The notes: generated from the letters alone by a model not told the origin. Positions 1-19,339 are shown, numbered from the stretch's first letter. The stretch: DNA of 23,272 nucleotides from Coriobacteriales bacterium (GCA_031279835.1 JAITHV010000051.1:1-23272), one strand, 5' to 3'. Made by a program: numbers and translations.

Positions 1-184
1 GTAGAATTATACTAGAATTGGAAGGCGACGTCAAGTCTCTGCTGGGAGTTTTAGCAGCTAAATCGGGGCTTCTTGGCTCGATCGGGGTTAGTTAGTAGAA
101 AGAGGAACAAAACTCACGTTGTAGCAGTGCCATCGCTCGTCTCTCACTTTGCGTCGGCCTGCATTGCCTTGGCAGCCGCACCGT

Positions 185-769
185 TTACAGCCACCTTCCC
201 TTGTCGCGCGCCGTCACAAGGTGCTCGTGGCGTTGCTGCTCCCACGCACGGCCGCTCAGCGCCTCTGAGCCACCGAGCACGATGAACTCCTTGGCCTTGG
301 CGCGGTCGTAGATGCGATCAGTCAGCATGACCGTCTCCATAGCCTGATAGCAGCCGGTCTCCCTCAGATGTTCGACGGTGTGCCCTGCAGTGCATATGAC
401 AATCGCCTTCTTGGCCTGCTCGACGGTTTGAGGATGGTAGGCAAAGCCGACTGTCCACACGCGGTCAAACCAGCCCTTGAGCTTGGCAGGGCAGTCCGTC
501 CACCACACGGGGTAGATAAACGCCCATACATCTGCCGCATTGAGTTTGTCCTGCTCTGCGACCACGTCGTCAGGGACCGGTGCAGCGTTATGGTAGTTGT
601 GCTCGCGCTCGTACTCGGCGAGGCCAAGCTCAGGGTTGAAGCTCATCGCGTACAAATCTGAGACCGTGTGAGAATGACGTGCCTCAAACAGGCCGCGCAT
701 AAAAGCGACCAAGACCGCATGGGTAAAGCTTTCGGTGGACGGGTGAGCGTAGACTATATGGACGTACAT
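185..769 (-). CDS. Flavodoxin-fold NAD(P)H:quinone oxidoreductase-like protein (NQO1/MdaB/KefF 'Flavodoxin_2' family), ~194 aa
   Basis: The translation MYVHIVYAHPSTESFTHAV... is the typical N-terminus of FMN-dependent NAD(P)H dehydrogenase (quinone) proteins. I prefer the internal ATG at 769, which has AAAGG 9-13 nt upstream, over the track start at 799, which has no RBS. Confidence 0.7.
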   Translation of the reverse strand: MYVHIVYAHPSTESFTHAVLVAFMRGLFEARHSHTVSDLYAMSFNPELGLAEYEREHNYHNAAPVPDDVVAEQDKLNAADVWAFIYPVWWTDCPAKLKGWFDRVWTVGFAYHPQTVEQAKKAIVICTAGHTVEHLRETGCYQAMETVMLTDRIYDRAKAKEFIVLGGSEALSGRAWEQQRHEHLVTARDKGRWL

Positions 770-914
770 AGCAGCACAACCTTTCACTAGCATAAGCATG
801 CATGATGTACCAATTTCACGCCATAAGCGTGTGCATCCTTATTTTACCAGTGGGCATGCGCCTGTCATAGCAACGCAACAGTTGCCGCGCCTCGCGTTCA
901 TCCACGCACACGTG

Positions 915-2012
915 TCACGACCCCTTCAAGACCTGCGTCAGCTGGGTCAGGAGGTCGGTGCCGCCCGAGACCGAAATCGTGCCGACATTCTCGCAGATCT
1001 TCTCAAGGTACTCGAGCTCCTTGAGCTTGTACAGTGTCTGGTTTTCGTCCATCAGCTTTGCCGTGTTCAGGAGGCTCCTTGTTGACGCTACCTCCTCGCG
1101 CCGCGTGATGACATTGGCCTGGGCCTTTTTCTCCGCAAGCAAAACGGTGTTCATAATGCTCCTAATATCACCCGGGAGGATAATATCCTTGACTCCTGCC
1201 TCTATGAAGGTCACATAATACTCGGCCTCCTTCTCTTTGAGCTGCGCGAGCACAGCCTGTGAGAGGCGCTCCTTGTTTTCAAGGATCTCGTCGAGGCGGT
1301 AGGCCCCAACATAATCACGCAGGGCAAGCTGGAGCAGCACATGAACCTGCCTCTCGTAATCGTCGATCTCGGAGTGGACCTTTACGCAGTCGGTGATCTT
1401 GTAGGTGCACACAAAGTTAATGCGGAGCGACACCTTGTCGAGGGTCATTATTTCTTGGCCGGTGATGTCCATCTGCAGCAAGCGCGTGTCTACGAGCACT
1501 GCGGTCACCTTCGTACCGTTGTCCCAGAAGTAGTGGGTGCCCGGCTCAAGCAGCCTGACGAACTCACCGTCGAAGCACAGTCGTGCCTTTTGGTAGTCTG
1601 CGACCTCGATTTTAGTAAACCACGTGCGTGGTATGCGCTCAAACAGGTAGCGAGGCATGTTGGTGGGCACTTCAGGAGTGGTCGTGCTGACTGCCCTGAA
1701 CTCGTGCGCGACGTGAATCTTGAAAAAAACATGGCGGCCGCTCTTCAGTGCGCTTACGAAGTTGCCGTTCGCATAATGAAGCACGAGCGTCTCGTCGGCA
1801 ACGTCTACAACATCGACTTCGCTTACGAATTGCGCGTTCCCGAGGAATACCGCAAGGTCAAAGCCGGAAACCTGGAACTCGGTTTCGGTTTGCACAGTCA
1901 CGACGCTATAGCCATGCCCATGTCTGACATGCTTGCCAGGCCGCAGGTACTTGACGAAGGCGCCGTTCTTGAACAGAAGGCCTCGCTGGTTTTCGTTGAT
2001 GATCACTTTCAC
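915..2012 (-). CDS. SPFH/band-7 (slipin/stomatin-like) family protein, 365 aa, GTG start
   Basis: Long minus-strand ORF. The N-terminus MKVIINENQRGLLFKNGAF and the overall pattern resemble bacterial slipin-family proteins. A GGAGAGGAG RBS sits 7 nt upstream of the GTG at 2012. Confidence 0.65.
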   Translation of the reverse strand: MKVIINENQRGLLFKNGAFVKYLRPGKHVRHGHGYSVVTVQTETEFQVSGFDLAVFLGNAQFVSEVDVVDVADETLVLHYANGNFVSALKSGRHVFFKIHVAHEFRAVSTTTPEVPTNMPRYLFERIPRTWFTKIEVADYQKARLCFDGEFVRLLEPGTHYFWDNGTKVTAVLVDTRLLQMDITGQEIMTLDKVSLRINFVCTYKITDCVKVHSEIDDYERQVHVLLQLALRDYVGAYRLDEILENKERLSQAVLAQLKEKEAEYYVTFIEAGVKDIILPGDIRSIMNTVLLAEKKAQANVITRREEVASTRSLLNTAKLMDENQTLYKLKELEYLEKICENVGTISVSGGTDLLTQLTQVLKGS

Positions 2013-2021
2013 GGTGCCGCT

Positions 2022-2165
2022 CCTCTCCGCGCTCGTGCCTCGTTAATGCCTCGCTCGTGACTCGCTCGTGTCTCGCTCGTGACTCGTGCCTCTCCGCGCT
2101 CGTGCCTCGTCGCTCGCGTGGCGCGTGGCGCACGGCGCGTGGCACGTGGTCGCGGATTGCCCTCT
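2022..2165. repeat. GC-rich low-complexity tract of imperfect short tandem repeats (CGCTCGTGACT-like units, then GCGTGGCGC-like units)
   Basis: Read directly: ctcgtgcctcg...cgctcgtgactcgctcgtgtctcgctcgtgactcgtgcc...gcgtggcgcgtggcgcacggcgcgtggcacgtgg. It lies in the upstream/promoter region of the slipin gene. Confidence 0.6.
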
Positions 2166-2404
2166 GCCTGCCGTTGCGGCGGACGCCTTGAGCTTCGCAT
2201 AGGCAAGCGCGGGGACCGACAGGTCTTGGCGCTAGTCATGCCAAAACGGTATCCGGCGTCCGACAGGGCAGCGGTGGCAGTGCGGCGGCTCCCCGAGGGC
2301 GCCGTTCGCACAGGGCAATCCATGACGCACAGCTTGTGGTGCGTTTGCACGCACTTTTGACGCAGAGCCTCGTTAGAGGCTAACTCCAAACCTTTGGTGG
2401 GCAC

Positions 2405-2433
2405 GGTGGCCTGGCGGGAATCGAACCCGCGTA
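2405..2433 (-). other. tRNA-derived 3' fragment (T-arm GCGGG-TTCGATT-CCCGC plus 3' acceptor strand); no complete cloverleaf could be built
   Basis: The minus strand reads gcgggttcgattcccgccaggccacc, a canonical T-stem/T-loop (GGTTCGATTCC) followed by 8 nt of acceptor-like sequence. I could not find a matching 5' acceptor strand, D-arm or anticodon arm in the 50-70 nt upstream, so I call it a fragment or remnant. Confidence 0.35.
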
Positions 2434-2577
2434 CTGGTGCGCGTCCGCTTGGCATACCACAAAGGCAAAGCCTTCGGCACCGCTGGAATGACTGACGACA
2501 TCCGGGCAAAAAGCGGAGTTGCATCATTTATAATACACTCCCAATCTACGCCTGTCATAGAAAAAAGCCGTGAGGCA

Positions 2578-2802
2578 TCAATCCATGTCCTTGGACTTTG
2601 TCTCGCGCGCAGTCGCCTGGCTTACGCCGAGCAACACGCCAAAGAGCACGCCAAGAGCCGCGCAGGTACGGAGAACCTCGGTTCCGAACGGCAGCCCCCA
2701 CACGCCCGCGAGCGTGCTGTAGAAAGTGCCGAGCGCAGGCAGCGCGATAAGCCCCGCCCACTTGAGTATCTGGTAGACCTTGTCGGGCAAGAAGTAGCTC
2801 AT
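2578..2802 (-). CDS. Small hypothetical membrane protein (74 aa, two predicted TM helices, charged C-terminus ETKSKDMD)
   Basis: The ORF has a GAGG-type RBS about 9 nt upstream of the ATG. It has two hydrophobic segments (LKWAGLIALPALGTFYSTLAGVWGL and LRTCAALGVLFGVLLGV). It sits alone inside a ~1.4 kb mostly non-coding stretch. Confidence 0.4.
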   Translation of the reverse strand: MSYFLPDKVYQILKWAGLIALPALGTFYSTLAGVWGLPFGTEVLRTCAALGVLFGVLLGVSQATARETKSKDMD

Positions 2803-3146
2803 CTCAGATCCTCTCTCTTATTAAAGCAAACCGTCAGCAGTATGTCGCAGGTGCCTGCAGAGTACCTGCGGACCAAAAAAAGCGCCTGCATGAGAAGAAG
2901 GGCCTACCTGCCAAGATCAATCTTAGAACTCTTGCGCTAGTACGATGGCAATAACAACGTCATATGGCGCGTGAACACCCCTTGTTTCTCCGTCCCATTG
3001 TATCTCAGACTGCCCCTGGTGTTTTTTGCGATCATTTGTATACATAGCCCGTGCGTCACGAGGTTTTTGCAGAGGCAAACCGGTGATACCCAGGCGGCAT
3101 TAGTCCGGAGTCGGCGCTATTGACGACGCTGATGGCGAGCAAGCTT

Positions 3147-3221
3147 CCCACGCGCACGATCCCCACGCGCACGATCCCAACACGCACGATCCCAACACGC
3201 ACGAACACCATGTGCACGAAC
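3147..3221. repeat. Tandem direct repeat with a 15-bp unit (CCCACGCGCACGATC), about 5 copies degenerating toward the 3' side
   Basis: Read directly: cccacgcgcacgatc / cccacgcgcacgatc / ccaacacgcacgatc / ccaacacgcacgaac / accatgtgcacgaac. Confidence 0.85.
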
Positions 3222-3320
3222 CTCTTGCGCTTCGCAGGTTCTTCGACAGTCCCTCGGTCGACGCAGGTCCACGAGACGTACATGCAGCGCCTCGTGTGCT
3301 AGAGTAGTTGTGCACAGGCG

Positions 3321-3413
3321 CTGCCCCCCAACTCTGATCCCGCCCTGCCCCCAACTCCAATCCCGCCCTGCCCTCGACTCCAATCCCGCCCTGCCCCACG
3401 CCAATCCAGTCTG
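3321..3413. repeat. Tandem direct repeat with a 23-24 bp unit (CTGCCCCCAACTC(C/T)(A/G)ATCCCGCC), about 4 copies, strongly C-rich on + and G-rich on -
   Basis: Read directly: ctgccccccaactctgatcccgcc / ctgcccccaactccaatcccgcc / ctgccctcgactccaatcccgcc / ctgccccacgccaatccagt. It ends about 45 bp upstream of the MBL-hydrolase start codon. Confidence 0.85.
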
Positions 3414-3457
3414 TGCCCCCGCTCCAAGCCTTCCCGCCCACTGTTCCGGAGAAGCCC

Positions 3458-4180
3458 ATGAGAGCCAGACAATTTGGACGTATCCACCAGCTGACGCTGT
3501 TTTGGCCGCTGTTCCCCATCAGCTGCTACCTCGTCGAGGATGACGACGGCCTGACGCTTGTAGACACTGGCTTGCCGCAGTCCGTGAAAGGCATTGTTGC
3601 CTATGCCCGTCGGCTCGGCAAGCCGATTGTGCGCATCGCCCTGACCCATTGTCATGGCGACCATGTTGGCGGGCTTGACGGCGTGAAGGCCACGTTCCCC
3701 CTGGCCGAGGTGGCGATTTCAGCACGTGAGGCGCGGATCCTCGCAGGCGACACAAGCTTAGACCCACACGAGCCACAAACGCCCTTAAAAGGCGGGTTTG
3801 TCTCCGTGACCACCAAGCCCGACCGGCTCCTCAGCAGCGGGGACACGTTCGGCACCCTTACTGCAATGTGTTGTCCGGGGCACACTCCGGGCCATATGGT
3901 CTATTACATCGAGCAAGACCGGGCAGTCATTGTGGGCGACGCAGTGCAGACAGTAGGCGGCCTGACCATAGCTGGGCAGCCAAACGGGTGGTTTCCTTGG
4001 GTGTATCGGGCAACCTGGGACGCTGCGATGGCGCTCAGGTGCGCCCGCATGCTTCTCGACCTCGACCTCTCCCTACTGCTGTGCGCCCATGGCCCGGCGC
4101 TGCACGAGCCGCTGCCTATGCTGCGGCGTGCGTTGCAGGGCGGCGGCCGCAGTAAAGACAAAGACAGGAGCGACACATGA
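3458..4180 (+). CDS. Metallo-beta-lactamase-fold hydrolase (HxHxDH motif THCHGDHVGG), ~240 aa
   Basis: The MBL signature ALTHCHGDHVGG and the later CCPGHTPGH are present. I prefer the internal ATG at 3458, which has GGAG 7 nt upstream, over the track start at 3413, which lies inside the tandem repeat. Confidence 0.8.
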   Translation: MRARQFGRIHQLTLFWPLFPISCYLVEDDDGLTLVDTGLPQSVKGIVAYARRLGKPIVRIALTHCHGDHVGGLDGVKATFPLAEVAISAREARILAGDTSLDPHEPQTPLKGGFVSVTTKPDRLLSSGDTFGTLTAMCCPGHTPGHMVYYIEQDRAVIVGDAVQTVGGLTIAGQPNGWFPWVYRATWDAAMALRCARMLLDLDLSLLLCAHGPALHEPLPMLRRALQGGGRSKDKDRSDT

Positions 4181-4851
4181 ACATTCACGAGGCAATGCAG
4201 CAGAGGCATTCTGTGCGTCAGTACACCGACGCGCCTCTAAGCGCTGATGCCGCGCAACAGCTTGTCGGCTATGTGGGCGAGTGCAACCAGCTCAGCGGCA
4301 TGCACCTGCAGCTGGTGCTCGGCGACACCAAGGCGTTTGGCGGCTTTCGGCGCCTGATCATCAAAAACGCTGCCAACTACCTCGCCGTCGTAGGTCCAGA
4401 CGACAGCGCCTTGGATTACAGCAGTGGCTACTGGGGAGAGAAGGTCGTGCTCAGGGCAAAGCAGCTCGGCGTGGACTCTTGCTGGTTTTCTATGGGTGCA
4501 AAAAAGGGCAGCGTTGAGATACTGCCTGGTGAGAAGATGCGCATCGTCGTGGTGCTCGGCTACGGTGCCGTGCCAGGCACGCCGCACCAGTCAAAGCCGA
4601 GTACTGAGCTATGTGCCAACGAGTCGGGTGACGAGTTGCCTGAGTGGTTTGTCCAAGGAATAGAGGCCGCGCTTTTGGCGCCAACGGCCAGAAACCAGCA
4701 AAAGTTCTGCTTCACCCTGTTGCCTCATCGCACCGTGCGCGCAGAGTCGCTCGGGGGGCCATTCTCGGATATAGACTTAGGAATCGCCTGCTGTCATTTC
4801 GAGATCGGCGCGGGCAAAGAGAACTTCAGCTGGGCTGACCGGATTGATTGA
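4177..4851 (+). CDS. Nitroreductase-family (FMN-dependent NAD(P)H oxidoreductase) protein, 224 aa
   Basis: The N-terminus MNIHEAMQQRHSVRQYTD is the classic nitroreductase opening. Its start overlaps the MBL stop as ATGA, indicating translational coupling. Confidence 0.8.
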   Translation: MNIHEAMQQRHSVRQYTDAPLSADAAQQLVGYVGECNQLSGMHLQLVLGDTKAFGGFRRLIIKNAANYLAVVGPDDSALDYSSGYWGEKVVLRAKQLGVDSCWFSMGAKKGSVEILPGEKMRIVVVLGYGAVPGTPHQSKPSTELCANESGDELPEWFVQGIEAALLAPTARNQQKFCFTLLPHRTVRAESLGGPFSDIDLGIACCHFEIGAGKENFSWADRID

Positions 4852-6538: not shown

Positions 6539-6731
6539 CAAGCTCCACAATCTGCCGTGGTCGCAGCCCGTTACTGTCATCCCGGCCTTGAGCCGGGATC
6601 TCGACGTTGCTTCTCGACGAGCAGGGCACGCTCAGTGCCTGGCCAGCTTGACCTGTTCACGATATACTGTCCAGCATGCCACAACAGACAAGCGGCGCTA
6701 AGGCGGGTCCATCACAGGCGAGGCGGTGTTG

Positions 6732-9700
6732 ATGTACGTGCAAGATGTCGTCAGAGCGGTTTTCAGGGCTATCCACGAAGGCAAATGGCTCGATGTCGTC
6801 TATTGCAACCGCTTTGGCGAACGGACGCACTTCTGGGCAGAGATCACGGCGGTCGATCCCGCCCAGATGACCTTTAGGGCAAGCGGACTGCACCTATCGA
6901 CGCACTCGCTAACCGAGGGCATGACCCTTCACGCCCACAAGATCGCTGCTGCGACGGTCATCGAGGGCACCTGGTGCACGGTCAACGACGAGCTGGTGGC
7001 AGACATGGCCCGTGACGCGCCGCGCTACGAGCCGCTGTTCGGCCAAGTGGCCAACATGCGGGTCCTCAACTACTATGAAGACTGCCACCGGCTCGATGCC
7101 GACCCATACTGCATGGCATACGAGCTGTTGCGTGGACTTGACGCTGACAGCTTCTCAGACCGGCGCTGTGCGCTCACGAATGAGCAGTTTTCCGGGCTTA
7201 TGGGCGACTTGCTCAGGGAGGTCCCTGGTCGACCGATGCATGAGGGAACTCCCCTGCGACTTAGAAGCCTTGCCATGAACGCGCTAAGTGTCAACACGGA
7301 CAAAGGCCTCTATGTTCTGGCATACCGGCGGCTGCAGCTCGACGTAAAGTCGCGCGAGTTGGTAATGGAAGAGTCGCCCACCATCTGTTGGAAGTTTATT
7401 CTCGAAAAGAACACCGCCGATAAAACCCATAAGCCCGTGCGGCTGGTGCGGGGCATAGACCTGTTCCTCGACCATGACGAGCAGTCATTGTTGCTGGATT
7501 TTAACGCGAACGCCGAGTTAATCAAAGACTGCATCACTGCTGCCTCCCGTCGCCTGTCCTCGAGGTCGCACACCGCTCGGCCACCCGAAATGATAGGGCC
7601 ATACAAAGTGGACGACTTGCCGTATGTCATGGTAGTCGGCAGAGACTCGTCGGTGAACTTGGCACATGAATACTCGGGAATATTACAACAATATAACACT
7701 GCTGTCAGCGCCACGCCGAGCGCCCCAACTCCCGCCGCACAGGGCGCCCCTGCCACCCCGATTCGTGCGTTCTTCGGCGAGTTGCTCAAGCAGCCGCCTG
7801 CCCAGCGGGACCCGCTGCCGCTCGTCGTGCTCGACAACCAGGCGGGACTCGACCAGCTCCGGGCAATCCACAGCGCGCTCAACAACCCACTGACGTATGT
7901 TCAAGGCCCGCCAGGCACCGGCAAGACGAAGACCATCGTGAACACCGTTATCTCAGCATTTTGCAACAACTTGAGCGTCTTGGTCTCGTCGTACAACAAC
8001 CTCCCCGTCAAAAACGTCACCGACGCGCTGCTCAGCCGCGTGTTCCAGTCGCAGCCGATCCACTTTCCCGTGCTGCGGATCGGCAACCCTCACGTCCTCG
8101 CGGAGTCTCTTGACCGGGTTGCAAAAAGCCTCAAGGCGGTGCGACTTGCTGACGCCAGCCCCGCTCCCCAAGGCCCCGCGCCCCTCAGTCCAAGCAGCAT
8201 GCCGCTTGAGCCAAACAGCTCCTTGCTCGAGCTCCTAAGGCGCCACGAAGAGCTTGTCGACCTTCTAGAAAGACGTGATGCCGTCATGCAGATGCTTGAC
8301 TCCATCAGCGACTTCAAGCTCCATATGGACCTTCAGGCCCTACAGCTCAACGACATCAACGCGCGCATAGCAGCCATCGGCGCCATCGAGGACGCAGACG
8401 CAGCGGCCTTTCTCGGCACAAGCTCGGGGCCGCTTGAGGAATACCTCTTCCATGAGTCGCTCAGGCGCTATCGGTTGCTCGACGAGCCACCATTCCAAGA
8501 GTTTGCTGCAATATTCTTGCAGGAGAATAGTAATAATCGCAACCGGGCATTCAACCGTTGGATAAGCGACGACGACAACCTCGCCTTGTCGCTCAAAGTG
8601 TTCCCGGTTGTGGCAAGCACCTGTCTTTCCGCCAGCCGCCTTGCGTCCCCGCGCCCGTGCTTCGACCTTGCGATCATCGACGAGGCAAGCCAATGCAAGG
8701 CTGCCGAGTCGCTCATCCCGGTCGTCCGCGCCCATCGGCTCATGCTCGTCGGCGACCCCCAGCAACTCAGCCCCATCACCCAGCTCAACGAGTCCGACAA
8801 CGCGGCACTGCGCATGAAGTACGCCGTGCCCAAGGAGTACGACTACGCGCGCAACTCGGTTTACCAGGTCTTTCTCGCCTGTGACTCGGTGAGCGACGAG
8901 ATACTGCTCAAAGACCACTACCGCTGTGACGCCGACATCATCGGGTTCAGCAACAAGAAGTATTACGGCGGGCGGCTGGTTGTGAAGACGCCGCCTTCAA
9001 CAGGCACGTCGCTGCACTTCATCGACGTGCGCGATAACGAGACCGTCGGCAAGAACACTGCCCCCGCCGAGGTCAACGCCGTCATCAGCTACGCGCAGAA
9101 AAACCCTCATAAGAACATCGGCGTCATCACTCCTTTCAAGAATCAGCGGCTGCTCCTCGATGCGGCAATAACAAACCATAGGCTGACAAATGTCTCCTGC
9201 GGCACCGTTCATTCCTTTCAAGGGGACGAGAAGGACGTGGTGCTCTTGTCGCTCGCACTCACGCGGCAGACGCACAAGGCGACCTACGAGTGGCTCTGCA
9301 ACAACCGCGAGCTGATTAACGTCGCCACCACCAGGGCCCGTCGCGAGTTGGTGCTCGTCGCAAGCAGGGCCGATATCGAGCGCCTGCATGAGCACCGAAG
9401 CGACGACGACCTGCTTGAGCTCATGCACTACGTGACGCAGCGCGGGAACACCGAGGTCACAAGCCGCACCGCACGATCGCGAGCGCTGGGCATCAAGCCC
9501 TACAGCACAGCAACCGAAGAGGCCTTTCTCACCAGTATCGGTCACGCAATAAGCACCCTCAGCAGCTCAGGAAGGCGCCATTCGGTCAAGCGGGAGGTGC
9601 CCATCTCGCACGTCTTCACCAGCAATTCGGGCACATCCGCCGACGCAGAGACGCACCGCGGCCTGTTCTACAGCGGCAGGTTCGACTTCGTCGTCTACGA

Positions 9701-9911
9701 GCGCCACCCGGGGTCTGCCGAGATGCCCGTGCTGGCATTTGAGCTCGACGGGCGCGAGCACTTCGACGAGGCGACTGTCAAACAACGGGATGAGGAGAAA
9801 AACGCCCTCTGCCGTGCCTATGGGCTTAAGCTTGTCCGCGTCGACAACACCTATGCCCGCCGTTACGCGTACCTCAAAGACCTGCTGCTTGCATGGCTTG
9901 ACGTCTCATAG
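6732..9911 (+). CDS. Large orphan protein: unknown ~380-aa N-terminal domain + SF1B Upf1-like helicase (AAA_11/AAA_12) + C-terminal DUF2726/PD-(D/E)xK-like endonuclease-fold domain, ~1060 aa
   Basis: Helicase motifs: Walker A VQGPPGTGKTKT; motif II IIDEASQC; motif III LVGDPQQLSPI; motif IV YRCDADII; motif V HSFQGDEKDVVLLSL; motif VI INVATTRARRELVLV. The C-terminus GRFDFVVYERHPGSAEMPVLAFELDGREHFDEATVKQRDEEKNALCRAYGLKLVRV matches the DUF2726 pattern (rvDFvl...iElDG..H...RD...G..lvRv). I prefer the ATG at 6732, which has GAGG 9 nt upstream; GTG 6726 is an alternative. Confidence 0.8.
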   Translation: MYVQDVVRAVFRAIHEGKWLDVVYCNRFGERTHFWAEITAVDPAQMTFRASGLHLSTHSLTEGMTLHAHKIAAATVIEGTWCTVNDELVADMARDAPRYEPLFGQVANMRVLNYYEDCHRLDADPYCMAYELLRGLDADSFSDRRCALTNEQFSGLMGDLLREVPGRPMHEGTPLRLRSLAMNALSVNTDKGLYVLAYRRLQLDVKSRELVMEESPTICWKFILEKNTADKTHKPVRLVRGIDLFLDHDEQSLLLDFNANAELIKDCITAASRRLSSRSHTARPPEMIGPYKVDDLPYVMVVGRDSSVNLAHEYSGILQQYNTAVSATPSAPTPAAQGAPATPIRAFFGELLKQPPAQRDPLPLVVLDNQAGLDQLRAIHSALNNPLTYVQGPPGTGKTKTIVNTVISAFCNNLSVLVSSYNNLPVKNVTDALLSRVFQSQPIHFPVLRIGNPHVLAESLDRVAKSLKAVRLADASPAPQGPAPLSPSSMPLEPNSSLLELLRRHEELVDLLERRDAVMQMLDSISDFKLHMDLQALQLNDINARIAAIGAIEDADAAAFLGTSSGPLEEYLFHESLRRYRLLDEPPFQEFAAIFLQENSNNRNRAFNRWISDDDNLALSLKVFPVVASTCLSASRLASPRPCFDLAIIDEASQCKAAESLIPVVRAHRLMLVGDPQQLSPITQLNESDNAALRMKYAVPKEYDYARNSVYQVFLACDSVSDEILLKDHYRCDADIIGFSNKKYYGGRLVVKTPPSTGTSLHFIDVRDNETVGKNTAPAEVNAVISYAQKNPHKNIGVITPFKNQRLLLDAAITNHRLTNVSCGTVHSFQGDEKDVVLLSLALTRQTHKATYEWLCNNRELINVATTRARRELVLVASRADIERLHEHRSDDDLLELMHYVTQRGNTEVTSRTARSRALGIKPYSTATEEAFLTSIGHAISTLSSSGRRHSVKREVPISHVFTSNSGTSADAETHRGLFYSGRFDFVVYERHPGSAEMPVLAFELDGREHFDEATVKQRDEEKNALCRAYGLKLVRVDNTYARRYAYLKDLLLAWLDVS

Positions 9912-11006: not shown

Positions 11007-11096
11007 AGTCGGTTTGCCTGGCGGTCTAGCTTTGGGCGCAGGAAAACGACCAAAAAAGGCACACAAGGTGTCAGGTCAGTCTAAGAAGGAGCGAAC

Positions 11097-11900
11097 ATGA
11101 TTATCATCGGTGAAAAAATCAACGGCTTTATCCCCAAGACGTTGGCGGCAATCGAGGCTCGCGATGATGCGTACATCATCGAGATCACCAAGGGCCAGGC
11201 TGCAGGCGGCGCGACCTACATCGACATCTGTGCCGGCACGGCGCCTGATGTTGAGCGCGAGACCATGGAGTGGCTCATCGACCTCGTGCAGAGCAACACC
11301 GACACCCCTATTTCTCTGGACAGCTCTGACCCGCAGGTCATCATCGACATGATGCCCCGCGTCAAGAAGCCCGGTCTTATCAACTCGATCTCTCTTGAGG
11401 CCGGCAAGTGCGAGACGGTTCTTCCTGCCATCGCCAACACCGACTGGAAAGTCGTTGCGCTGACTTGCGACAGCAACGGTATTCCCGATGACCCCAAAGT
11501 GAAGTTCGATATCGCCAAGAAGATCATCGAGCAGGCCAATGAGCTCGGGATCAAGAACGACCGGCTCTTTATCGACCCACTGGTCACCACGCTTGCCACC
11601 AAGCAGGACTCCCTGATCAGCTTCAACGAGGCGATCCGCCTCATCAAGGCCGCGTATCCTGATGTGAACATCACCTCGGGACTCTCGAACATATCCTTTG
11701 GCATGCCGTTCCGCAAGGCGATCAACATGCAGTTCCTCGCCCTGACGATGGCTGCCGGCATGAACAGCGCTATCATGGACCCGATGTCGCAGGACATGCA
11801 GGCGACGATGCATGCGGTCAACGCCCTGCTGGGCAACGACGAGTACTGCGTCGAGTATCTCGGTGCCTTCCGCGAGGGACTGTTCGGCGCCACAAAATAA
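11097..11900 (+). CDS. Pterin-binding methyltransferase of the AcsE/MtrH family (methyl-corrinoid:tetrahydrofolate methyltransferase, MT-II), 267 aa
   Basis: [11 protein letters not shown]...GLSNISFG...[20 protein letters not shown]...[15 protein letters not shown] aligns closely with the AcsE pattern (IIGERING..., GLSNVS..., LINRTFLAMAMA.GLD.AI.D, LLN...YC). An AAGGAG RBS sits 6 nt upstream of the ATG. Confidence 0.85.
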
Positions 11901-11910
11901 ACGACCTCTT

Positions 11911-11952
11911 GACCGGCACACGCTTGAAGCGTGTGCCGGTCATTCTTATTGT
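11911..11952 (+). terminator. Strong intrinsic terminator (13-bp perfect stem GACCGGCACACGC/GCGTGTGCCGGTC, 5-nt loop, T-rich tail ATTCTTATTGT)
   Basis: Read directly, 11 nt after the AcsE-like stop codon. It lies inside the track ORF 11909..12544, so the folE start must be downstream of it. Confidence 0.75.
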
Positions 11953-11974
11953 CAACAGACGACCGGGGCGGGCA

Positions 11975-12544
11975 ATGAATCGCGAGAAGATTGAACAGGG
12001 TGTACGACTCATTCTTGAAGGCGTTGGCGAGGATCCTTCTCGTGAAGGGCTGCTCGACACGCCATCACGTGTCGCCTCTATGTACGAAGAGGTCTTGGCG
12101 GGCATGGAGCAAGATCCTGCGCCGCTGTTCAGCAAGAGCTTTGACGAAGGTCATGGCGAGCTGGTTTTGGTCAAAGACATCCCGCTCTACTCGATTTGCG
12201 AGCACCATATGGTGCCGTTCCTTGGAGTGGCGCACGTAGGGTATATCCCTGGTAAAGACGGTCGCGTGTGCGGCCTTTCAAAGATCATCCGCCTGGTTGA
12301 GGTGTACTCGAGGCGCCTGCAAGTACAAGAGCGCCTGACTTCTCAGATCGCTGAGACCTTAGTTAACGAGCTTGCCCCGAGGGGCGTCATAGTGGTCATT
12401 GAAGCCGAGCACCTCTGCATTTCGATGCGAGGCGTTCGCAAGCCTGGCACAAAAACGGTCACTTCTGCCGTTAGGGGGGTTTTCGGCGCCTCTGAGCGCT
12501 CGCGTGCAGAGGCACTCTCGTTGGTCTATGGTAAAAGCAAATAA
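11975..12544 (+). CDS. folE: GTP cyclohydrolase I (FolE), ~189 aa
   Basis: Motifs [33 protein letters not shown] and [10 protein letters not shown] are diagnostic of type I GTP cyclohydrolase. The start is placed after the terminator hairpin at the first in-frame ATG (MNREKIEQG...). Confidence 0.88.
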
Positions 12545-12692: not shown

Positions 12693-13943
12693 GTGAGGTT
12701 CGACACGCTCAACGACTATTCTCTGATTACTGGTATGGGAATCAGGGTGGTGGACGCTGATGGAGCTGAGCTTTTTGCCACGTCCCAGTTCGAGATTGTC
12801 CGCAAGGCGCTGAGCTATCTCGACGGGGTTTTCGGCTCACAAGAGAGCAGTCTTGAAGTCGAGGCAAGAAGCCGTGACCTTGCGCTCGTCATGGGTGGAG
12901 GCTTTTACGTCTACTTGTGTCCACGTGGCCTCATGTTTGGGATTGTGCCGTTCGCACGCAGCGGCAGGTGTCAGCGCTTCGTCATAGGCGGTCCGCTTAT
13001 ACTGTCGAATATTTATGACTATGTAGATTTTGAGATCATTCCACAGGCAGCCTCTGGCATTGACCGATACGAGGCATTGCGTTGGGTATCATGTATTCCT
13101 GTCAAAGACCCCCGAATAGCCTCAGCGGTGTTTGAGCACCTTTTTGTGAGTACGGCGTTTATCAACGGCACGAACACGCAGCTTGTCTCGCTTCTCGACG
13201 GCGAGGACATTTACAGTGACGATGACCCGTATGACAAGGCGGCAGGCATCGAGAAGCTGAGGTTTGAGACCCACTTGTACGACAACGAGAGCGAGGTCGT
13301 TGCGCAAAAGACCTTGCTTGAGACGCTTTGGGTCTCTGAAGACATACAGATCCGCTCGCTTTTTAATGAGATAAAGGGCCAGATACTCTTCCATCCCCGC
13401 AACAACCTCGACCTGCTCAAGGCCAAGTCGATGGACCTTATCTCTGTGCTCGCAGAATCAGCTATGCATAACGGGGCAGAGACGAAGATCCTCCTTCAGA
13501 TGCGCAACCGCGCCTTATTGGAGATCGACGAGCTTGAAAGCCTTGACGAGATCGTCGTGTGGCTCAATAAAATATACGAGTTGTTCACCTCGCATGTCTT
13601 CAACAATCCCAACTCACGCTACACTGAGGCAATCCGGAAGTCCCTCGCGTTTATGATGGACCATTATCAAGACAAGATCACGCTCAACGACGTTGCGGCA
13701 CACGTCTCGTTCTCTCCGACGTACCTGTCTAGCCTGTTCAAAAACGAGGTCGGCCAGACCTTTAAGAGTTGTCTCAACCGCATACGCATCGAGCAAAGCA
13801 AGCTGCTTATATCCGACTGGAACCTCACGATAGCCGAGGTCAGCTGTCAGGTCGGGTTCACTGACCAGAGTTATTTTGCCAAGGTCTTCAAGCAGTATGA
13901 AGGCGTGACACCGTATTTATACCGTCTCACCTGCAAGCAATGA
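12693..13943 (+). CDS. AraC/XylS-family transcriptional regulator with a ~300-aa N-terminal sensor region, 416 aa, GTG start
   Basis: The C-terminal dual HTH LNDVAAHVSFSPTYLSSLFKNEVGQTFKSCLNRIRIEQSKLL...IAEVSCQVGFTDQSYFAKVFKQYEGVTPYLYR is the AraC signature. An AGGAGG RBS sits 11 nt upstream of the GTG. Confidence 0.8.
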   Translation: MRFDTLNDYSLITGMGIRVVDADGAELFATSQFEIVRKALSYLDGVFGSQESSLEVEARSRDLALVMGGGFYVYLCPRGLMFGIVPFARSGRCQRFVIGGPLILSNIYDYVDFEIIPQAASGIDRYEALRWVSCIPVKDPRIASAVFEHLFVSTAFINGTNTQLVSLLDGEDIYSDDDPYDKAAGIEKLRFETHLYDNESEVVAQKTLLETLWVSEDIQIRSLFNEIKGQILFHPRNNLDLLKAKSMDLISVLAESAMHNGAETKILLQMRNRALLEIDELESLDEIVVWLNKIYELFTSHVFNNPNSRYTEAIRKSLAFMMDHYQDKITLNDVAAHVSFSPTYLSSLFKNEVGQTFKSCLNRIRIEQSKLLISDWNLTIAEVSCQVGFTDQSYFAKVFKQYEGVTPYLYRLTCKQ

Positions 13944-14096
13944 CGCCTCCTCTTTCGTAGCATAGCCGCATTGATTTGCAGCTCTTTTTACCAATTCACC
14001 CTGAATAAGTACAAGAAATGCCGCATCGGCTTGACGTACAATCAGCGTAATGCTTGGGCGCATGATGTCGTTTCAATACAAAGGAGATGGCAAACT

Positions 14097-15488
14097 ATGG
14101 TAAAGAAGAGCTTTACAGAAACTGCTTACAAGAATGTAGACGATTTTGTTTATGGTAAGTCAATCTACCCCGTCACGACCAAGCGTGGTCTTGTGGTCGG
14201 CGGCGGCACCCTGTATCCCGAGGTCAACTTCACCCTCCCCACCATGCTCATTACCGATGAGACCATGCCCGAGGTCCTGAGCATCTACAAGGAGATCATC
14301 ACCGGTATAGCCCAGCGTGCCGTCGAGCTTGAGGTCGAAGGCTTCTCCGCTGAGTGCGAGTGGCTGCCCGGCATGACGTTCGAGCCCGAGCGCGGCATCC
14401 AGGTCATGCGCATCCTCGAGGATGTTGTTGAGGAGTACTATCAGAAGTATGGCATCAAGGGTGCCGTACGCTCCACGCCTGTTGACATCCGTGAAGGCAA
14501 GGGTGTCGATCACATGTGGCATGGCGCCGCGTGGGACAAAGTAGTCAGGTCCTTCGAGGGCAGCGCCGAAATCGGCAACGACTTCCTGTCAATCGAGTCC
14601 ATCGGTGGCAAGGACGTCCACGACGAAGGGCTCATGTACTGCGATATCGAGAAGGTCATCTTCGGTGTTGGCGTTCTCGGCGCAAAGGACATGGAAGTGC
14701 TGTGGGAAATGATCGCCAAGGTCGCCGGCAAGTATCCTGGCGTTACCGCCGCTGGCGACACTGCATGCGGTTTTGCGAACACCGCCATGGTTCTTGCTGA
14801 GCAGGGCTACATCCCGCGTGTTCTTGGCGCGACTGCCCGCGTAATCGCTGCGGTGCGCACGATGGTTGCCAACGAGCAGGGCGCAACCGGTCCCGACAAG
14901 GACTGCGGCTATGAAGGTGTCATCATCAAGGCCATCACGGGTATGCCTGTCACGATGGAAGGCCGCATGGCTGCCGTCGCACACCTCTCGCGGGTGGGCA
15001 ACATCGCTCTGTGCTGCGCCGACCTCTGGAGCAACGAGTCCATTCAGCACATCAAGCTCCTCGGTGGCTATGCTGAGGTTGTTTCGGTCGAGCAGCTCGC
15101 TTATGACTGCCGCCTGCTGAATTGTGCGCGTGAGCGTGACGAGAAGACTGCGTTGCTTATGCGTGACCTGCTTGCAAACAGCGACAGCTGGCGTGACCCG
15201 CACGCATACATTCTGCGTCCGGATGTCGCTCTCAAGATCGCGACTGCTATCGTCTCTGAGAAGGACGATCACTATCTGCGTTCGGTCAAGGCTGCCGCGA
15301 CTGCTCTTGCAGTCATCCGCGAGGGCTATGATAAAAAAGAGCTCAAGCTTGAAGACCGCGAGCTCAGCTACCTTGACTCTCTCTCTGAGACTGTTGCTGC
15401 AATGCCGAAAGACGAGGGTTCCTTCATTGAGCAGCAGGTCGCTGCCAACACGAATCCGAAGTTCGATCCCAAGATGTACGACCTGTAG
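14097..15488 (+). CDS. MtaB-family substrate:corrinoid methyltransferase (MT-I; methanol:corrinoid methyltransferase-like), ~463 aa
   Basis: The N-terminus MVKKSFTETAYKNVDDFVYGKSIYPVTTKRGLVVGGGTLYPEVNFTLP resembles the MtaB N-terminus (…YTSMAY…FG.S.YPV…G…IPEINF…). Its size and its position next to the corrinoid protein and activator fit. An AAAGGAG RBS sits 10 nt upstream of the ATG at 14097; the track ORF starts earlier at 13971. Confidence 0.7.
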   Translation: MVKKSFTETAYKNVDDFVYGKSIYPVTTKRGLVVGGGTLYPEVNFTLPTMLITDETMPEVLSIYKEIITGIAQRAVELEVEGFSAECEWLPGMTFEPERGIQVMRILEDVVEEYYQKYGIKGAVRSTPVDIREGKGVDHMWHGAAWDKVVRSFEGSAEIGNDFLSIESIGGKDVHDEGLMYCDIEKVIFGVGVLGAKDMEVLWEMIAKVAGKYPGVTAAGDTACGFANTAMVLAEQGYIPRVLGATARVIAAVRTMVANEQGATGPDKDCGYEGVIIKAITGMPVTMEGRMAAVAHLSRVGNIALCCADLWSNESIQHIKLLGGYAEVVSVEQLAYDCRLLNCARERDEKTALLMRDLLANSDSWRDPHAYILRPDVALKIATAIVSEKDDHYLRSVKAAATALAVIREGYDKKELKLEDRELSYLDSLSETVAAMPKDEGSFIEQQVAANTNPKFDPKMYDL

Positions 15489-15519
15489 GTCGCGTCTTGC
15501 CATTAGTCCATACGGGGAC

Positions 15520-15581
15520 GCTTCGTTCAAGTTGTCCAGCACCTTGCAAGAGGTGCTGGACAACAGCACGTTAAACGAAGC
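15520..15581 (+). other. Long U-less RNA hairpin (13-bp perfect stem GTTGTCCAGCACC/GGTGCTGGACAAC, 8-nt loop, plus an outer 8-bp stem GCTTCGTT/AACGAAGC) 32 nt after the MT-I stop
   Basis: Read directly. There is no T-tract, so it is an I-shaped terminator, processing site or stability element. Confidence 0.55.
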
Positions 15582-15634
15582 TCTGTCAACTGGCGATGAA
15601 TGCAAGACAGCTTCTTGTAGAGGTCGGGAAGCTG

Positions 15635-15713
15635 CCTAAAACAACTAAAGAAAACCCTAAAACAACGTAAGAATTCACAAGATTTTGTGACACCCAAACC
15701 TTAAGATTAATTA
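15635..15713 (+). promoter_or_regulatory. Candidate promoter/operator block upstream of the corrinoid-protein gene: an 11-bp direct repeat CCTAAAACAAC x2 spaced 21 bp, the palindrome TCACAAGATTTTGTGA, -35 TTGTGA and -10 TAATTA 17 bp apart
   Basis: Read directly. The region is AT-rich, unlike the rest of the window. The direct repeats with 21-bp phasing lie immediately upstream of the putative -35. Confidence 0.3.
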
Positions 15714-15892
15714 GGTTCGAGACGAAGGTCTATGTTCCACACAGACTTTTGCTGACAGACTTCAGCTCAGCGACGCCCAAGCATTAGAGACGAATCTGTT
15801 AGCTTGTCAAGGGACCTCCGTATGGCTCGCGCTAATGTCTATAGTGCGAAAAAATTCCATGAACCGCATCAAACAGTTACATAGAGAGGAGC

Positions 15893-16534: not shown

Positions 16535-16575
16535 TCTGTAACTAAGCACCAGCATATCCAAACACGACTTTATAT

Positions 16576-16614
16576 GATGCAGCTCCAAATCTAGAATTGG
16601 TTTGGAGCTGCATC
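16576..16614 (+). other. U-less perfect 14-bp hairpin (GATGCAGCTCCAAA / TTTGGAGCTGCATC, 11-nt loop) between the corrinoid-protein gene and the activator gene
   Basis: Read directly, 42 nt after the corrinoid-protein stop. The track ORF start at 16597 (TTG) lies inside the hairpin arm and is rejected. Confidence 0.55.
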
Positions 16615-16632
16615 GTTCAGAAAGGCGGCAAC

Positions 16633-18561: not shown

Positions 18562-18655
18562 GGTCTCTCATGTTCCCTCGACGTGCACTGGCGTGGCGCT
18601 TGGCACAAGTCCGTGCAAAGCCACAGCGCAAAGAGTCATAGGATAGGAAGAAGCA

Positions 18656-19312: not shown

Positions 19313-19339
19313 CGCTCGTTAACAGACAGGCAGGCAACC

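What the first reader, a model, noticed from the sequence alone, without database searches (positions are those of the whole stretch)
6732..9911. Orphan 1060-aa protein fusing an unknown N-terminal domain, an Upf1-like SF1B helicase and a C-terminal DUF2726 nuclease fold: candidate single-gene defence system
All seven SF1 helicase motifs are intact, so the protein is probably an active translocase.
- The C-terminal ~110 aa match the DUF2726 pattern (RFDFVV...PVLAFELDGREH...RDEEK...GLKLVRV), a PD-(D/E)xK / restriction-endonuclease-like fold.
- The first ~380 aa match no family I recognise.
- Helicase plus nuclease in one polypeptide is the logic of the single-gene antiphage systems Hhe (Gao 2020), Nhi (nuclease-helicase immunity) and type II Mokosh. 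It is also seen in eukaryotic Upf1/ZNFX1-type RNA surveillance.
- The gene sits among detox/accessory genes: a LytTR pair, an ArsM-like methyltransferase, an MBL-hydrolase and a nitroreductase.
- It has its own RBS and no obvious operon partners.
- This is my best candidate for the undescribed system in this window, possibly a new domain architecture with a novel sensor domain.
Basis: partly seen in the sequence, partly recalled or inferred. Interest (0 to 1): 0.78.

Follow-up and report, generated by a model that had tools for sequence, protein, structure and literature searches.

The report
WYL–helicase–nuclease protein of unnamed family
This gene encodes one large protein with a predicted single-stranded nucleic-acid sensor (WYL domain), an Upf1-type helicase motor and a DNA-cutting domain; it belongs to a sizeable unnamed family of gut anaerobes and may be a one-gene anti-phage/anti-plasmid system, but the genomic evidence for defence is only modest.

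Summary
The ORF (6732-9911, +, 1059 aa) is real. Two of its claims fail.

1. It is not an orphan. Full-length homologues (42-48% identity, ~1000 aa) occur in at least 583 species genomes, mostly Lachnospiraceae and other Clostridia. The N-terminal module defines 578 representative clusters, with no sign of any other architecture.

No named defence model fits. Mokosh, Hhe, ProA and PLuB match only the helicase core, far below their cut-offs.

The gene stands alone, with no conserved partner in 81 loci. Contexts vary and are mostly metabolic. Strong defence-model hits are no commoner next to the gene than 7 or more genes away.

Best reading: an ssDNA-sensing helicase-nuclease, most likely for defence (~0.45). 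Genome maintenance is a serious rival (~0.3). This is a new variant of a known kind, of moderate interest.

The parts
6640..6668 (+). Promoter-like site (TGGCCA-17-TATACT) in the 193-bp intergenic region upstream of the gene
   Evidence: Consensus scan. This is a consensus match only, not evidence of function.
6717..6724 (+). Purine-rich Shine-Dalgarno-like stretch (AGGCGAGG), 7 nt before the ATG at 6732
   Evidence: Read from the sequence.
6732..9911 (+). Coding sequence of the 1059-aa WYL-helicase-DUF2726 protein (NCBI MDR2492479.1); the end coordinate includes the stop codon
   Evidence: The ATG at 6732 agrees with the N-termini of the homologues.
6732..7031 (+). Residues 1-100: divergent WYL domain (a helix followed by a five-stranded Sm-like barrel). 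Invariant or near-invariant residues: F11, A13, H15, E16, G17, K18, W19, Y24, N26, Y34, W35, G52, H54, L55
7032..7766 (+). Residues 101-345: family-specific alpha/beta module with no assigned fold, conserved across the family
7848..9401 (+). Residues 373-890: Upf1-like SF1B helicase core (RecA1 with a variable helical insert at ~461-620, then RecA2)
   Evidence: Pfam AAA_11 and AAA_12. PDB sequence hits to IGHMBP2, DNA2, Upf1 and Sen1. PADLOC MkoA and MkoC match the helicase part only.
7905..7928 (+). Walker A motif GPPGTGKT (residues 392-399)
   Evidence: G392 to K398 invariant and T399 at least 90% conserved in 22 diverse homologues.
8679..8693 (+). Walker B / motif II DEASQ (residues 650-654)
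   Evidence: Invariant D650, E651, A652 and Q654.
9507..9872 (+). Residues 926-1047: DUF2726 domain (PD-(D/E)xK superfamily, Vsr/DUF559-like group)
   Evidence: Pfam PF10881, 33.6 bits against a cut-off of 24.7. Classification from Steczkiewicz et al. 2012, PMC3424549.
9684..9800 (+). Putative nuclease active-site segment: D985 (RFDFVV), E1004-L-D1006-G, E1009-H1010, R1019-D1020, K1023
   Evidence: All invariant in the family. The catalytic role is inferred, not tested.

Best explanation
The gene encodes a stand-alone, three-module nucleic-acid surveillance enzyme.

Inferred mechanism:
1. The N-terminal WYL barrel, probably helped by the adjacent family-specific module, binds single-stranded nucleic acid. 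By analogy with DriD, PafBC, CapW and PIF1-WYL, this is most likely ssDNA exposed on replicating or damaged foreign DNA.
2. Binding recruits or licenses the Upf1-like SF1B motor, which translocates 5'->3' using ATP.
3. The C-terminal DUF2726 (Vsr/DUF559-like) endonuclease then nicks or cuts the tracked nucleic acid.

Most likely biological role: a single-gene defence against phages or plasmids, working like Nhi, Hhe, type II Mokosh and Hachiman, but with the sensor wired in cis to the effector.

What is shown: the domain architecture, the intact motifs, the size of the family, and the stand-alone organisation.
What is inferred: the ligand, the polarity, the cleavage and the defence role.

The confidence of 0.45 is for the defence role. 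The molecular architecture itself I put at about 0.85.
For: - Architecture: WYL, Upf1-like helicase and DUF2726, all conserved over the full length in more than 100 clusters.
- The best matches in a defence-specific library are the Mokosh helicases MkoA (E 2.9e-52) and MkoC (7.3e-45), then PDC-S37 and Hhe.
- WYL domains in solved structures bind ssDNA (DriD 7tzv, CapW 9c5g) and control the defence systems BREX (BrxR) and CBASS (CapW). WYL fusions to SF1 helicases and nucleases were already noted in a defence context (PMC4012209).
- ssDNA or SSB-DNA complexes trigger the helicase-nuclease systems Nhi, Hna, Hachiman and AbpAB (PMC10732053).
- There is no conserved partner gene, and the gene sits in a different neighbourhood in every species. 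It is accessory rather than universal: at least 583 of 185,579 species genomes.
- Some copies lie next to bona fide defence genes: type IV REase, type I MTase, PDC-S01/S06/S07/S57, HEC-02, Menshen NsnA, PD-T4-2 and a DRT-type RT-helicase.
- A conflict-system cassette (CTD6/MC2/AAA_23) and MGE insertions occur a few kb away in some strains.
- DUF2726 is described as an REase-fold DNase fused to Abi-type N-terminal domains (PMC3710099).
Against: - Most annotated contexts are metabolic or housekeeping. Examples: inside a sugar ABC operon, and beside fba/HPr/WhiA/MurB/UvrC.
- Strong defence-model hits are no more frequent beside the gene than 7 or more genes away. Several of those models also catch housekeeping proteins.
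- Within a species the gene has a fixed position and seems widely retained.
- No module is hypervariable: mean pairwise identity is 0.44-0.71 in every segment.
- The family is absent from the phage and plasmid collections, and only 1 full-length copy was found in 2.9 million viral contigs.
- No curated anti-phage model reaches its cut-off.
- No member has been tested experimentally, as far as the searched literature shows.
Confidence: 0.45

Rival explanations
1. Genome-maintenance enzyme. An accessory DNA-repair or replication-stress helicase-nuclease of Clostridia, functionally like DNA2, or like PIF1-WYL plus a nuclease. It would use the WYL domain to find ssDNA gaps, flaps or R-loops in the cell's own chromosome and process them.
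For: - The top WYL structural matches are the DNA-damage-response regulators PafBC and DriD.
- The PIF1-WYL domain is an accessory ssDNA-binding module of a genome-stability helicase (bioRxiv 10.1101/163188).
- DNA2 and IGHMBP2 are among the closest solved helicases.
- The gene sits in a stable chromosomal position among housekeeping genes within a species.
- All domains are under uniform purifying selection.
- The gene is not on plasmids or phages.
Against: - The distribution is patchy and there is no synteny across species.
- There is no recurrent linkage to repair genes: OGG, Ogt and a PafC-like regulator each appear in only 1 of 80 loci.
- The helicase is closest to the defence helicases MkoA and MkoC in the PADLOC library.
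- The literature links DUF2726 to mobile elements and conflict systems.
Confidence: 0.3
2. RNA-targeting surveillance. The WYL domain binds ssRNA, as WYL1 does, and the Upf1-like motor tracks RNA or RNA-DNA hybrids. This is as hypothesised for Mokosh and CoCoNuT CnuH. The protein would degrade aberrant or foreign transcripts, or resolve and cut R-loops.
For: - The helicase core is homologous to the RNA helicases Upf1, Sen1 and IGHMBP2, and to the Mokosh helicase.
- WYL1 (6oaw) appears among the structural matches, and the fold is Sm/Hfq-like.
- The Upf1-like clade acts on both RNA and ssDNA (PMC11090510).
Against: - The effector is a Vsr/DUF559-group PD-(D/E)xK domain, and the characterised relatives listed there act on DNA.
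- There is no RNA-processing gene linkage in the neighbourhoods.
Confidence: 0.12
3. A mobile-element function. The protein would serve a phage or integrative element, for example in replication, packaging or superinfection exclusion, rather than the host.
For: One full-length copy lies directly after a contractile-tail structural module in an IMG/VR contig. Integrase, IS110 and TnpV/MobC genes lie 2-5 kb upstream in some Gemmiger strains.
Against: - Only 1 of 2.9 million viral contigs carries a full-length copy. In that contig the gene (44% GC) clashes with its 67%-GC flank, which suggests a chimera or a host flank.
- There are no hits in 50,697 phage records and no full-length hit in 72,556 plasmids.
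- The window has no tRNA, flanking repeats or integrase near the gene.
- In Gemmiger the mobile elements vary while the gene stays put.
Confidence: 0.05

Closest known systems
Type II Mokosh (MkoC) and the type I Mokosh helicase MkoA
   Same: Upf1-like (COG1112) helicase joined to a nuclease, in a single polypeptide for type II. These are the best PADLOC hits: MkoA E 2.9e-52 and MkoC E 7.3e-45 over the helicase core. In Mokosh, defence needs both the ATP-binding site and the nuclease site.
   Different: The Mokosh nuclease is PLD-family; here it is DUF2726 (PD-(D/E)xK) and no PLD domain is detected. Mokosh has no WYL N-terminus, and MkoA carries a kinase-containing N-terminal region instead. 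The matches cover only profile positions 621-1099 of MkoA and 636-981 of MkoC.
Hhe (Gao 2020; NCBIfam NF042953, DUF4011-containing anti-phage protein)
   Same: A single large protein with an Upf1-like SF1 helicase followed by a Vsr/REase-like endonuclease domain. Some homologues of the window protein also hit PF18741 (REase_MTES_1575), the Hhe-type nuclease family.
   Different: No DUF4011 N-terminal domain, and about 1060 aa rather than about 1800-1900 aa. The NCBIfam score is 70 bits against a cut-off of 2000. The PADLOC Hhe hit (E 1.7e-15) covers only part of the helicase. The WYL N-terminus is not a feature of Hhe.
Nhi (nuclease-helicase immunity, Staphylococcus)
   Same: A one-protein nuclease plus SF1 helicase defence, proposed to act on phage replication complexes containing SSB and ssDNA (PMC10732053). 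This is the same functional logic as proposed here.
   Different: No PADLOC model named Nhi appears among the 22 hits at E<=1. From my own memory, not tested here, the nuclease of Nhi is N-terminal to the helicase, the reverse order. Nhi has no WYL domain.
WYL-domain regulators BrxR, CapW, DriD and PafBC
   Different: Those are HTH-WYL-WCX transcription factors. Here there is no HTH and no WCX, and the WYL domain sits at the N-terminus of an enzyme. The Pfam WYL model does not detect it.
Bacterial PIF1 helicases with a WYL domain
   Same: An SF1B helicase fused to a WYL domain that acts as an accessory ssDNA-binding module (bioRxiv 10.1101/163188).
   Different: A different SF1B clade (Pif1/RecD2, not Upf1-like). 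The paper describes the WYL domain as fused to the C-terminus of the helicase domain. There is no nuclease domain, and the role is genome maintenance.
Hachiman (HamAB)
   Same: A helicase sensor plus a PD-(D/E)xK-type nuclease effector that responds to DNA damage or ssDNA intermediates (PMC12278908, abstract).
   Different: A two-gene system with an SF2 (Ski2-like) helicase and a DUF1837 nuclease. No sequence relationship was detected.

Membership tests
Upf1-like SF1B helicases (Pfam AAA_11 + AAA_12 / COG1112) | Both RecA-like halves match AAA_11 and AAA_12 above the curated cut-offs | tested here: met
   AAA_11 at 101 bits and AAA_12 at 78.6 bits, each against a cut-off of 27. PDB hits to IGHMBP2, DNA2, Upf1 and Sen1.
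Upf1-like SF1B helicases (Pfam AAA_11 + AAA_12 / COG1112) | Intact ATPase/helicase motifs Q, I, II, III, IV, V and VI | tested here: met
   Q375, GPPGTGKT, DEASQ, VGDPQQL, HYRC, GTVHxFQGD and NVAxxRA are invariant or nearly so in the family.
DUF2726 (PF10881; PD-(D/E)xK superfamily) | Match above the Pfam gathering score | tested here: met
   33.6 bits against a cut-off of 24.7, residues 926-1047, profile positions 6-118 of 126. The same domain is precomputed in all listed homologues.
DUF2726 (PF10881; PD-(D/E)xK superfamily) | Conserved acidic and basic active-site residues | tested here: met
   D985, E1004, D1006, H1010, D1020 and K1023 are invariant. The position of the canonical (D/E)xK lysine is D1006; an invariant K1023 follows. 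Catalysis was not tested.
Vsr / DUF559 endonuclease group | Detectable homology to Vsr | tested here: inconclusive
   hhalign of the family C-terminal profile against E. coli Vsr aligns only 12 columns (GRFDFVV with GRPDFVV), probability 2%. No PDB sequence hit. The grouping rests on PMC3424549.
WYL domain | Sm-like SH3 beta-barrel with WYL proteins as the closest structural relatives | tested here: met
WYL domain | Match to the Pfam WYL model (PF13280) | tested here: not met
   No WYL hit even at E<=1. This is a sequence-divergent WYL-like domain, assigned by predicted structure only.
WYL domain | Binds a nucleic-acid or nucleotide ligand | not testable with these tools
   Needs EMSA or ITC with ssDNA, ssRNA or nucleotides.
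Mokosh (type II, MkoC) | COG1112 / Upf1-like helicase | tested here: met
   MkoC E 7.3e-45 and MkoA E 2.9e-52 over the helicase core.
Mokosh (type II, MkoC) | PLD-family nuclease domain (definition in Millman et al. preprint) | tested here: not met
   No PLD-type Pfam hit at E<=1. The MkoC alignment stops at profile position 981 of 1136. The C-terminus here is DUF2726.
Hhe | DUF4011 N-terminal domain and a score above the NCBIfam equivalog cut-off | tested here: not met
   No DUF4011 hit. NF042953 scores 70.1 bits against a cut-off of 2000.
Other named anti-phage helicase proteins (ProA, PLuB, PDC-S37, DpdJ, GajB) | A full-length match or a score above the cut-off | tested here: not met
   ProA scores 108 bits against a cut-off of 1500 and PLuB 101 against 999. 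The PDC-S37, DpdJ and GajB matches are confined to helicase segments.
Defence genes in general (guilt by association) | Enrichment of known defence genes in the neighbourhood | tested here: inconclusive
   Strong PADLOC hits (E<=1e-25): about 8-10 of 147 proteins at +-1, about 12-14 of 132 at +-2, and about 5-8 of 140 in the control 7 or more genes away. These counts are approximate, read from aggregated tables over crude ORF calls. No genome-wide background was available.

The most novel reading that the evidence does not exclude
This family is a previously unnamed single-gene anti-phage/anti-plasmid system that is widespread in human- and animal-gut Clostridia (Lachnospiraceae, Gemmiger and others). 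In it, a WYL sensor is wired in cis to a Upf1-like helicase and a Vsr-like nuclease, rather than acting through transcription as in BrxR or CapW. Exposed ssDNA on an invader would then directly license its own unwinding and cleavage. The fold-unassigned module at residues 101-345 would be a new specificity or autoinhibition element.
Probability: 0.35. Interest if true: 0.6.

Novelty: new variant of a known kind. Interest (0 to 1): 0.45.

Why it matters
If this is a defence system, it would add a compact one-gene system. It is common in abundant gut commensals such as Gemmiger formicilis, where one 90%-identity cluster holds 14,526 sequences. It would also be a clear case of a WYL domain acting as a direct allosteric or recruiting sensor on an effector enzyme, instead of as a transcription-factor ligand domain.

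That would link the ssDNA-sensing theme of DriD, PafBC and CapW with the helicase-nuclease effectors Nhi, Hhe, Mokosh and Hachiman.

If it is instead a repair enzyme, it would be a bacterial DNA2-like activity with an unusual sensor.

Either way, the family is well defined, has cultured hosts, and offers clear point mutants to test. The architecture is a recombination of known parts, so a specialist would be interested but not astonished.

Tried and rejected
1. Sequence searches of the N-terminal 370 aa and of the C-terminal profile against PDB sequences found nothing useful.
2. A profile comparison with genuine E. coli Vsr gave only a 12-column local match, probability 2%. I therefore do not claim Vsr homology from my own test.
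3. The afdb50 fold library was not available. The middle module got no significant PDB match.
4. I tried a synteny/insertion test in the window's own lineage. The nearest homologue of the flanking EFR1 ferredoxin is only 50% identical, so there are no close genomes to compare.
5. A possible link to DNA-repair genes (Ogt, AlkD-like, OGG, PafC-like regulator) was rejected: OGG, Ogt and the PafC-like regulator each occur in only 1 of 80 loci, and the AlkD-like probe found none.
6. A 284-aa 'truncated member' in a family cluster turned out to be an unrelated AraC regulator encoded 19 bp upstream, which is a clustering artefact.
7. Cross-phylum transfer could not be claimed. Copies labelled Bacteroides, Lentisphaera or Thermoguttaceae are 70-87% identical to Clostridia copies and sit in 31-42% GC flanks, so mis-binning is possible.
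8. There are no tRNA genes, Rfam matches or meaningful flanking repeats around the gene in the window.
9. The phage and plasmid collections hold no full-length member.
10. The exhaustive profile search showed no sign of other architectures carrying the N-terminal module; the shorter hits look like contig-end fragments.
Full report
**Observation**

The window has a single long ORF at 6726/6732-9911 on the + strand. Translated from the ATG at 6732 it gives 1059 aa.

Pfam places three domains, all above their curated cut-offs:
- AAA_11 at residues 374-683 (E 1.3e-28).
- AAA_12 at residues 721-878 (E 6.1e-22).
- DUF2726 at residues 926-1047 (33.6 bits against a cut-off of 24.7).

The closest solved proteins by sequence are IGHMBP2, DNA2, Upf1 and Sen1, so the motor is an Upf1-like SF1B helicase.

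Upstream there is a 193-bp intergenic region with a promoter-like site at 6640-6668 and a purine-rich RBS (AGGCGAGG) 7 nt before the ATG. The next gene downstream, an EFR1-type ferredoxin, is convergent. The gene is therefore monocistronic here.

The neighbours are metabolic:
- Upstream: a flavodoxin-like protein, an SPFH protein, an MBL hydrolase, a TM1586-type nitroreductase, LytTR plus a DUF3021 membrane protein, and a SAM methyltransferase.
- Downstream: a pterin-binding protein, GTP cyclohydrolase I, and a methanol/corrinoid methyltransferase cluster.

No tRNA gene, Rfam family or flanking repeat marks an insertion. Gene GC (~0.60) matches the local sequence.

**It is not an orphan**

- The full-length search returned 1729 proteins at E<=1e-5. 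The best 120 are nearly all 1000-1030 aa, 42-48% identical over 98-100% of the query (one covers 83%), with the same AAA_11/AAA_12/DUF2726 set.
- Sources name them only 'AAA domain-containing protein' or 'DUF2726 domain-containing protein'.
- The window protein is NCBI MDR2492479.1 from a Coriobacteriales MAG.
Nearly all are Lachnospiraceae and other Clostridia: Roseburia, Acetatifactor, Gemmiger, Hungatella, Anaerovoracaceae, Sedimentibacter and Acetivibrio.
- Copies labelled Bacteroides, Lentisphaera or Thermoguttaceae are 70-87% identical to Clostridia copies and lie in 31-42% GC flanks. I do not treat them as proof of cross-phylum transfer.
- The window's copy is the outlier of the family, at most 48% identical to any other member.

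**Conservation**

The whole length is conserved.
- Invariant helicase positions include Q375, G392-K398 (Walker A), D650-E651-A652-Q654, V673-L679, H729-C732, G824-D832 and N863-A869.
- Invariant positions in the C-terminal domain are D985, E1004, D1006, G1007, E1009, H1010, R1019, D1020 and K1023.
- Mean pairwise identity per segment is 0.44-0.71. The N-terminal modules (0.51-0.54) and a helical insert in RecA1 (0.44) are the most variable, but nothing is hypervariable.

**The N-terminal third**

Sequence methods find nothing in residues 1-370.

An AlphaFold model of residues 1-372, built with 22 truncated homologues, has pLDDT around 90 over residues 1-100 and most of 125-330. It begins with a helix followed by a five-stranded small barrel.
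- Foldseek independently ranks BrxR, CapW and PafBC on top, with probability ~1.0 but modest E-values of 2e-3 to 2e-2.

Residues ~1-100 are therefore a sequence-divergent WYL domain. This is an assignment from a predicted structure, not from an HMM.

An exhaustive profile search with the N-terminal alignment found 578 representative clusters (193 at E<=1e-30). The module always starts at residue ~1, and complete proteins are ~990-1130 aa; the shorter hits look like contig-end fragments. I saw no sign of the module in any other architecture.

**The C-terminal domain**

DUF2726 is classed in the PD-(D/E)xK superfamily and listed with Vsr and DUF559 by Steczkiewicz et al. 2012 (PMC3424549). Anantharaman et al. 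2013 describe it as an REase-fold DNase fused to Abi-type N-terminal domains (PMC3710099).

My own tests add little. The family profile finds no PDB sequence. An hhalign comparison with genuine E. coli Vsr aligns only GRFDFVV with GRPDFVV, at probability 2%.

The invariant D...ExDG..H...RD..K pattern supports an active metal-dependent nuclease, but that is inference.

**Relation to named defence systems**

- In PADLOC the best hits are the Mokosh helicases MkoA (E 2.9e-52, profile 621-1099 of 1112) and MkoC (7.3e-45), then PDC-S37 and Hhe. All are confined to the helicase.
- In NCBIfam (June 2026) nothing approaches its cut-off: ProA 108 against 1500, PLuB 101 against 999, Hhe 70 against 2000.
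- Mokosh is defined by a COG1112 helicase plus a PLD nuclease, and there is no PLD domain here.
- Hhe requires DUF4011, which is also absent.

The protein is therefore not a member of any named system. It shares their logic.

**Genomic context**

I called ORFs in 81 loci with a crude greedy longest-ORF caller and clustered all the neighbours. The only cluster shared by all loci is the helicase itself. The next most common cluster is in 20 loci at scattered positions. So there is no conserved partner and no synteny.

The 147 immediate neighbours hit 160 different Pfam families, none in more than 4 loci.

Nine species contexts with Pfam annotation are mostly metabolic or housekeeping:
- Between a sugar ABC permease and its regulator.
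- Beside fba, HPr, WhiA, RapZ, MurB and UvrC.
- Beside TRAP or ABC transporters.
- After PfkB and an AraC regulator in Gemmiger formicilis.

Within a species the position is fixed. In one Lachnospiraceae strain a CTD6/MC2/AAA_23 conflict cassette replaces ABC genes ~8 kb upstream. In Gemmiger, integrase, IS110 and TnpV/MobC elements come and go 2-5 kb upstream.

PADLOC at E<=1e-25 gave these approximate counts, which I read from aggregated tables:

| Set | Proteins scanned | Strong hits | Families hit |
|---|---|---|---|
| +-1 neighbours | 147 | ~8-10 | type IV REase, PDC-S01/S06/S07/S57, HKD+Snf2, HEC-02B, DpdF, PsyrT, PbeA |
| +-2 neighbours | 132 | ~12-14 | type I and II MTases, type IV REase, NsnA, PD-T4-2_A, RT-helicase, HEC-02A/B, PDC-S01/S07, DpdF, PsyrT, ZorB/MotB |
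| Control, 7 or more genes away | 140 | ~5-8 | HamB, PDC-S01, a retron-type RT, SspA/DndA, mad3 |

Several of these models also catch housekeeping helicases, MotB and cysteine desulfurases. Defence genes are therefore present in a minority of these regions, but they are not concentrated at the gene. Without a genome-wide background the association is modest and undecided.

A suspected link to DNA-repair genes did not hold: OGG, Ogt and a PafC-like regulator each occur in only 1 of 80 loci.

The family has no full-length member in 72,556 plasmids and no hit in 50,697 phage records. One IMG/VR contig carries a copy right after head, sheath and baseplate genes. In that contig the gene is 44% GC and the flank 67% GC, so the contig may be chimeric or the gene may lie in a host flank.

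**Mechanism**

What is shown:
- A WYL-like barrel, a family-specific module, an intact SF1B motor and a conserved PD-(D/E)xK-type domain in one polypeptide.
- Stand-alone organisation.

What is inferred:
1. The WYL domain binds single-stranded nucleic acid, most likely ssDNA. It does so in DriD and CapW (structures), in PafBC, and in PIF1-WYL.
2. Binding recruits or licenses the motor, which moves 5'->3' as SF1B/Upf1-like helicases do (established knowledge of the family).
3. The DUF2726 domain cuts the tracked nucleic acid.

ssDNA and SSB complexes trigger Nhi, Hna, Hachiman and AbpAB. WYL fusions to SF1 helicases and nucleases were flagged in a defence context by Makarova et al. 2014.

I put a defence role at about 0.45, a genome-maintenance role (DNA2-like or PIF1-WYL-like) at about 0.30, RNA or R-loop surveillance at about 0.12, and a mobile-element function at about 0.05. 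The remainder is unassigned.

**Novelty and verdict**

'Orphan' is wrong, and the 'novel sensor' is mostly a WYL domain.

The thing itself is a real, well-conserved, unnamed family. Its architecture (WYL in cis, an Upf1-like helicase, a Vsr-group nuclease) is a new combination of known parts, so I rate it a new variant of a known kind.

I searched the held literature for DUF2726, for WYL-helicase fusions and for Upf1-like anti-phage nucleases, and found no description of this family.

Interest is moderate. The family is testable and common in gut commensals, but it is not conceptually surprising, and the defence claim lacks strong contextual support.

Noticed in passing
window 12693-20860: A methanol/methyl-corrinoid methyltransferase cluster in a contig attributed to Coriobacteriales. 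It comprises an AraC/PocR regulator (12693-13943), MtaB (13971-15488), a B12-binding corrinoid protein (15893-16534), a RACo reductive activase (16597-18561), a DUF3786 protein (18656-19312) and a PucR-type regulator (19340-20860). Methylotrophic corrinoid metabolism may be worth a look in this lineage.
   Followed up: partly
window 11076-12544: Two long ORFs overlap on opposite strands at 11076-11921 (-) and 11097-11900 (+). Only the + strand ORF has a family match (Pterin_bind), so the - strand ORF is probably spurious. GTP cyclohydrolase I follows at 11909-12544.
   Followed up: partly
   Followed up: yes
L081 1-13009 (IMGVR_UViG_3300023687_000154): The only full-length family member in the viral collection sits directly after major-head, tail-sheath and baseplate genes. 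The gene is 44% GC while the flank is 67% GC. This sharp discontinuity suggests a chimeric contig, a very recent acquisition, or a host flank.
   Followed up: partly
L085 1-2870 compared with L084 and L086 1-2610: In one strain of the same Lachnospiraceae species, genes with CTD6, MC2 and AAA_23 domains (NTP-dependent conflict-system domains) replace ABC-transporter genes ~8 kb upstream of the family member. This looks like a variable slot near the gene.
   Followed up: no
L102, L103 and L104, positions 1-4800: In Gemmiger formicilis the PfkB-AraC-helicase block is constant. The region 2-5 kb upstream differs between strains: ABC transporter and pectate-lyase-like genes, or integrase fragments plus an IS110 transposase, or integrase plus TnpV/MobC. 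This is a mobile-element insertion hotspot.
   Followed up: partly
protein cluster of P0017 (member P0313): A 284-aa AraC-type regulator with no sequence similarity to the helicase is filed in the same 90%-identity cluster as the 1010-aa Gemmiger helicase. It is encoded 19 bp upstream of it. This is a clustering artefact, perhaps caused by a fused gene call.
   Followed up: yes
L044, L048, L052, L057, L079: Contigs attributed to Lentisphaera, Thermoguttaceae, Bacteroidales and Bacteroides carry family members 70-87% identical to Clostridia copies, within 31-42% GC flanks. This may be mis-binning or contamination rather than cross-phylum transfer.
   Followed up: partly
L095 1519-4613 (Anaerovorax odorimutans): An HNH_4 protein, a methyltransferase, an unannotated 334-aa protein and a NUDIX hydrolase form a tight co-directional block 3-6 kb upstream of the family member. 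It could be a small conflict-type or nucleotide-modification cassette.
   Followed up: no
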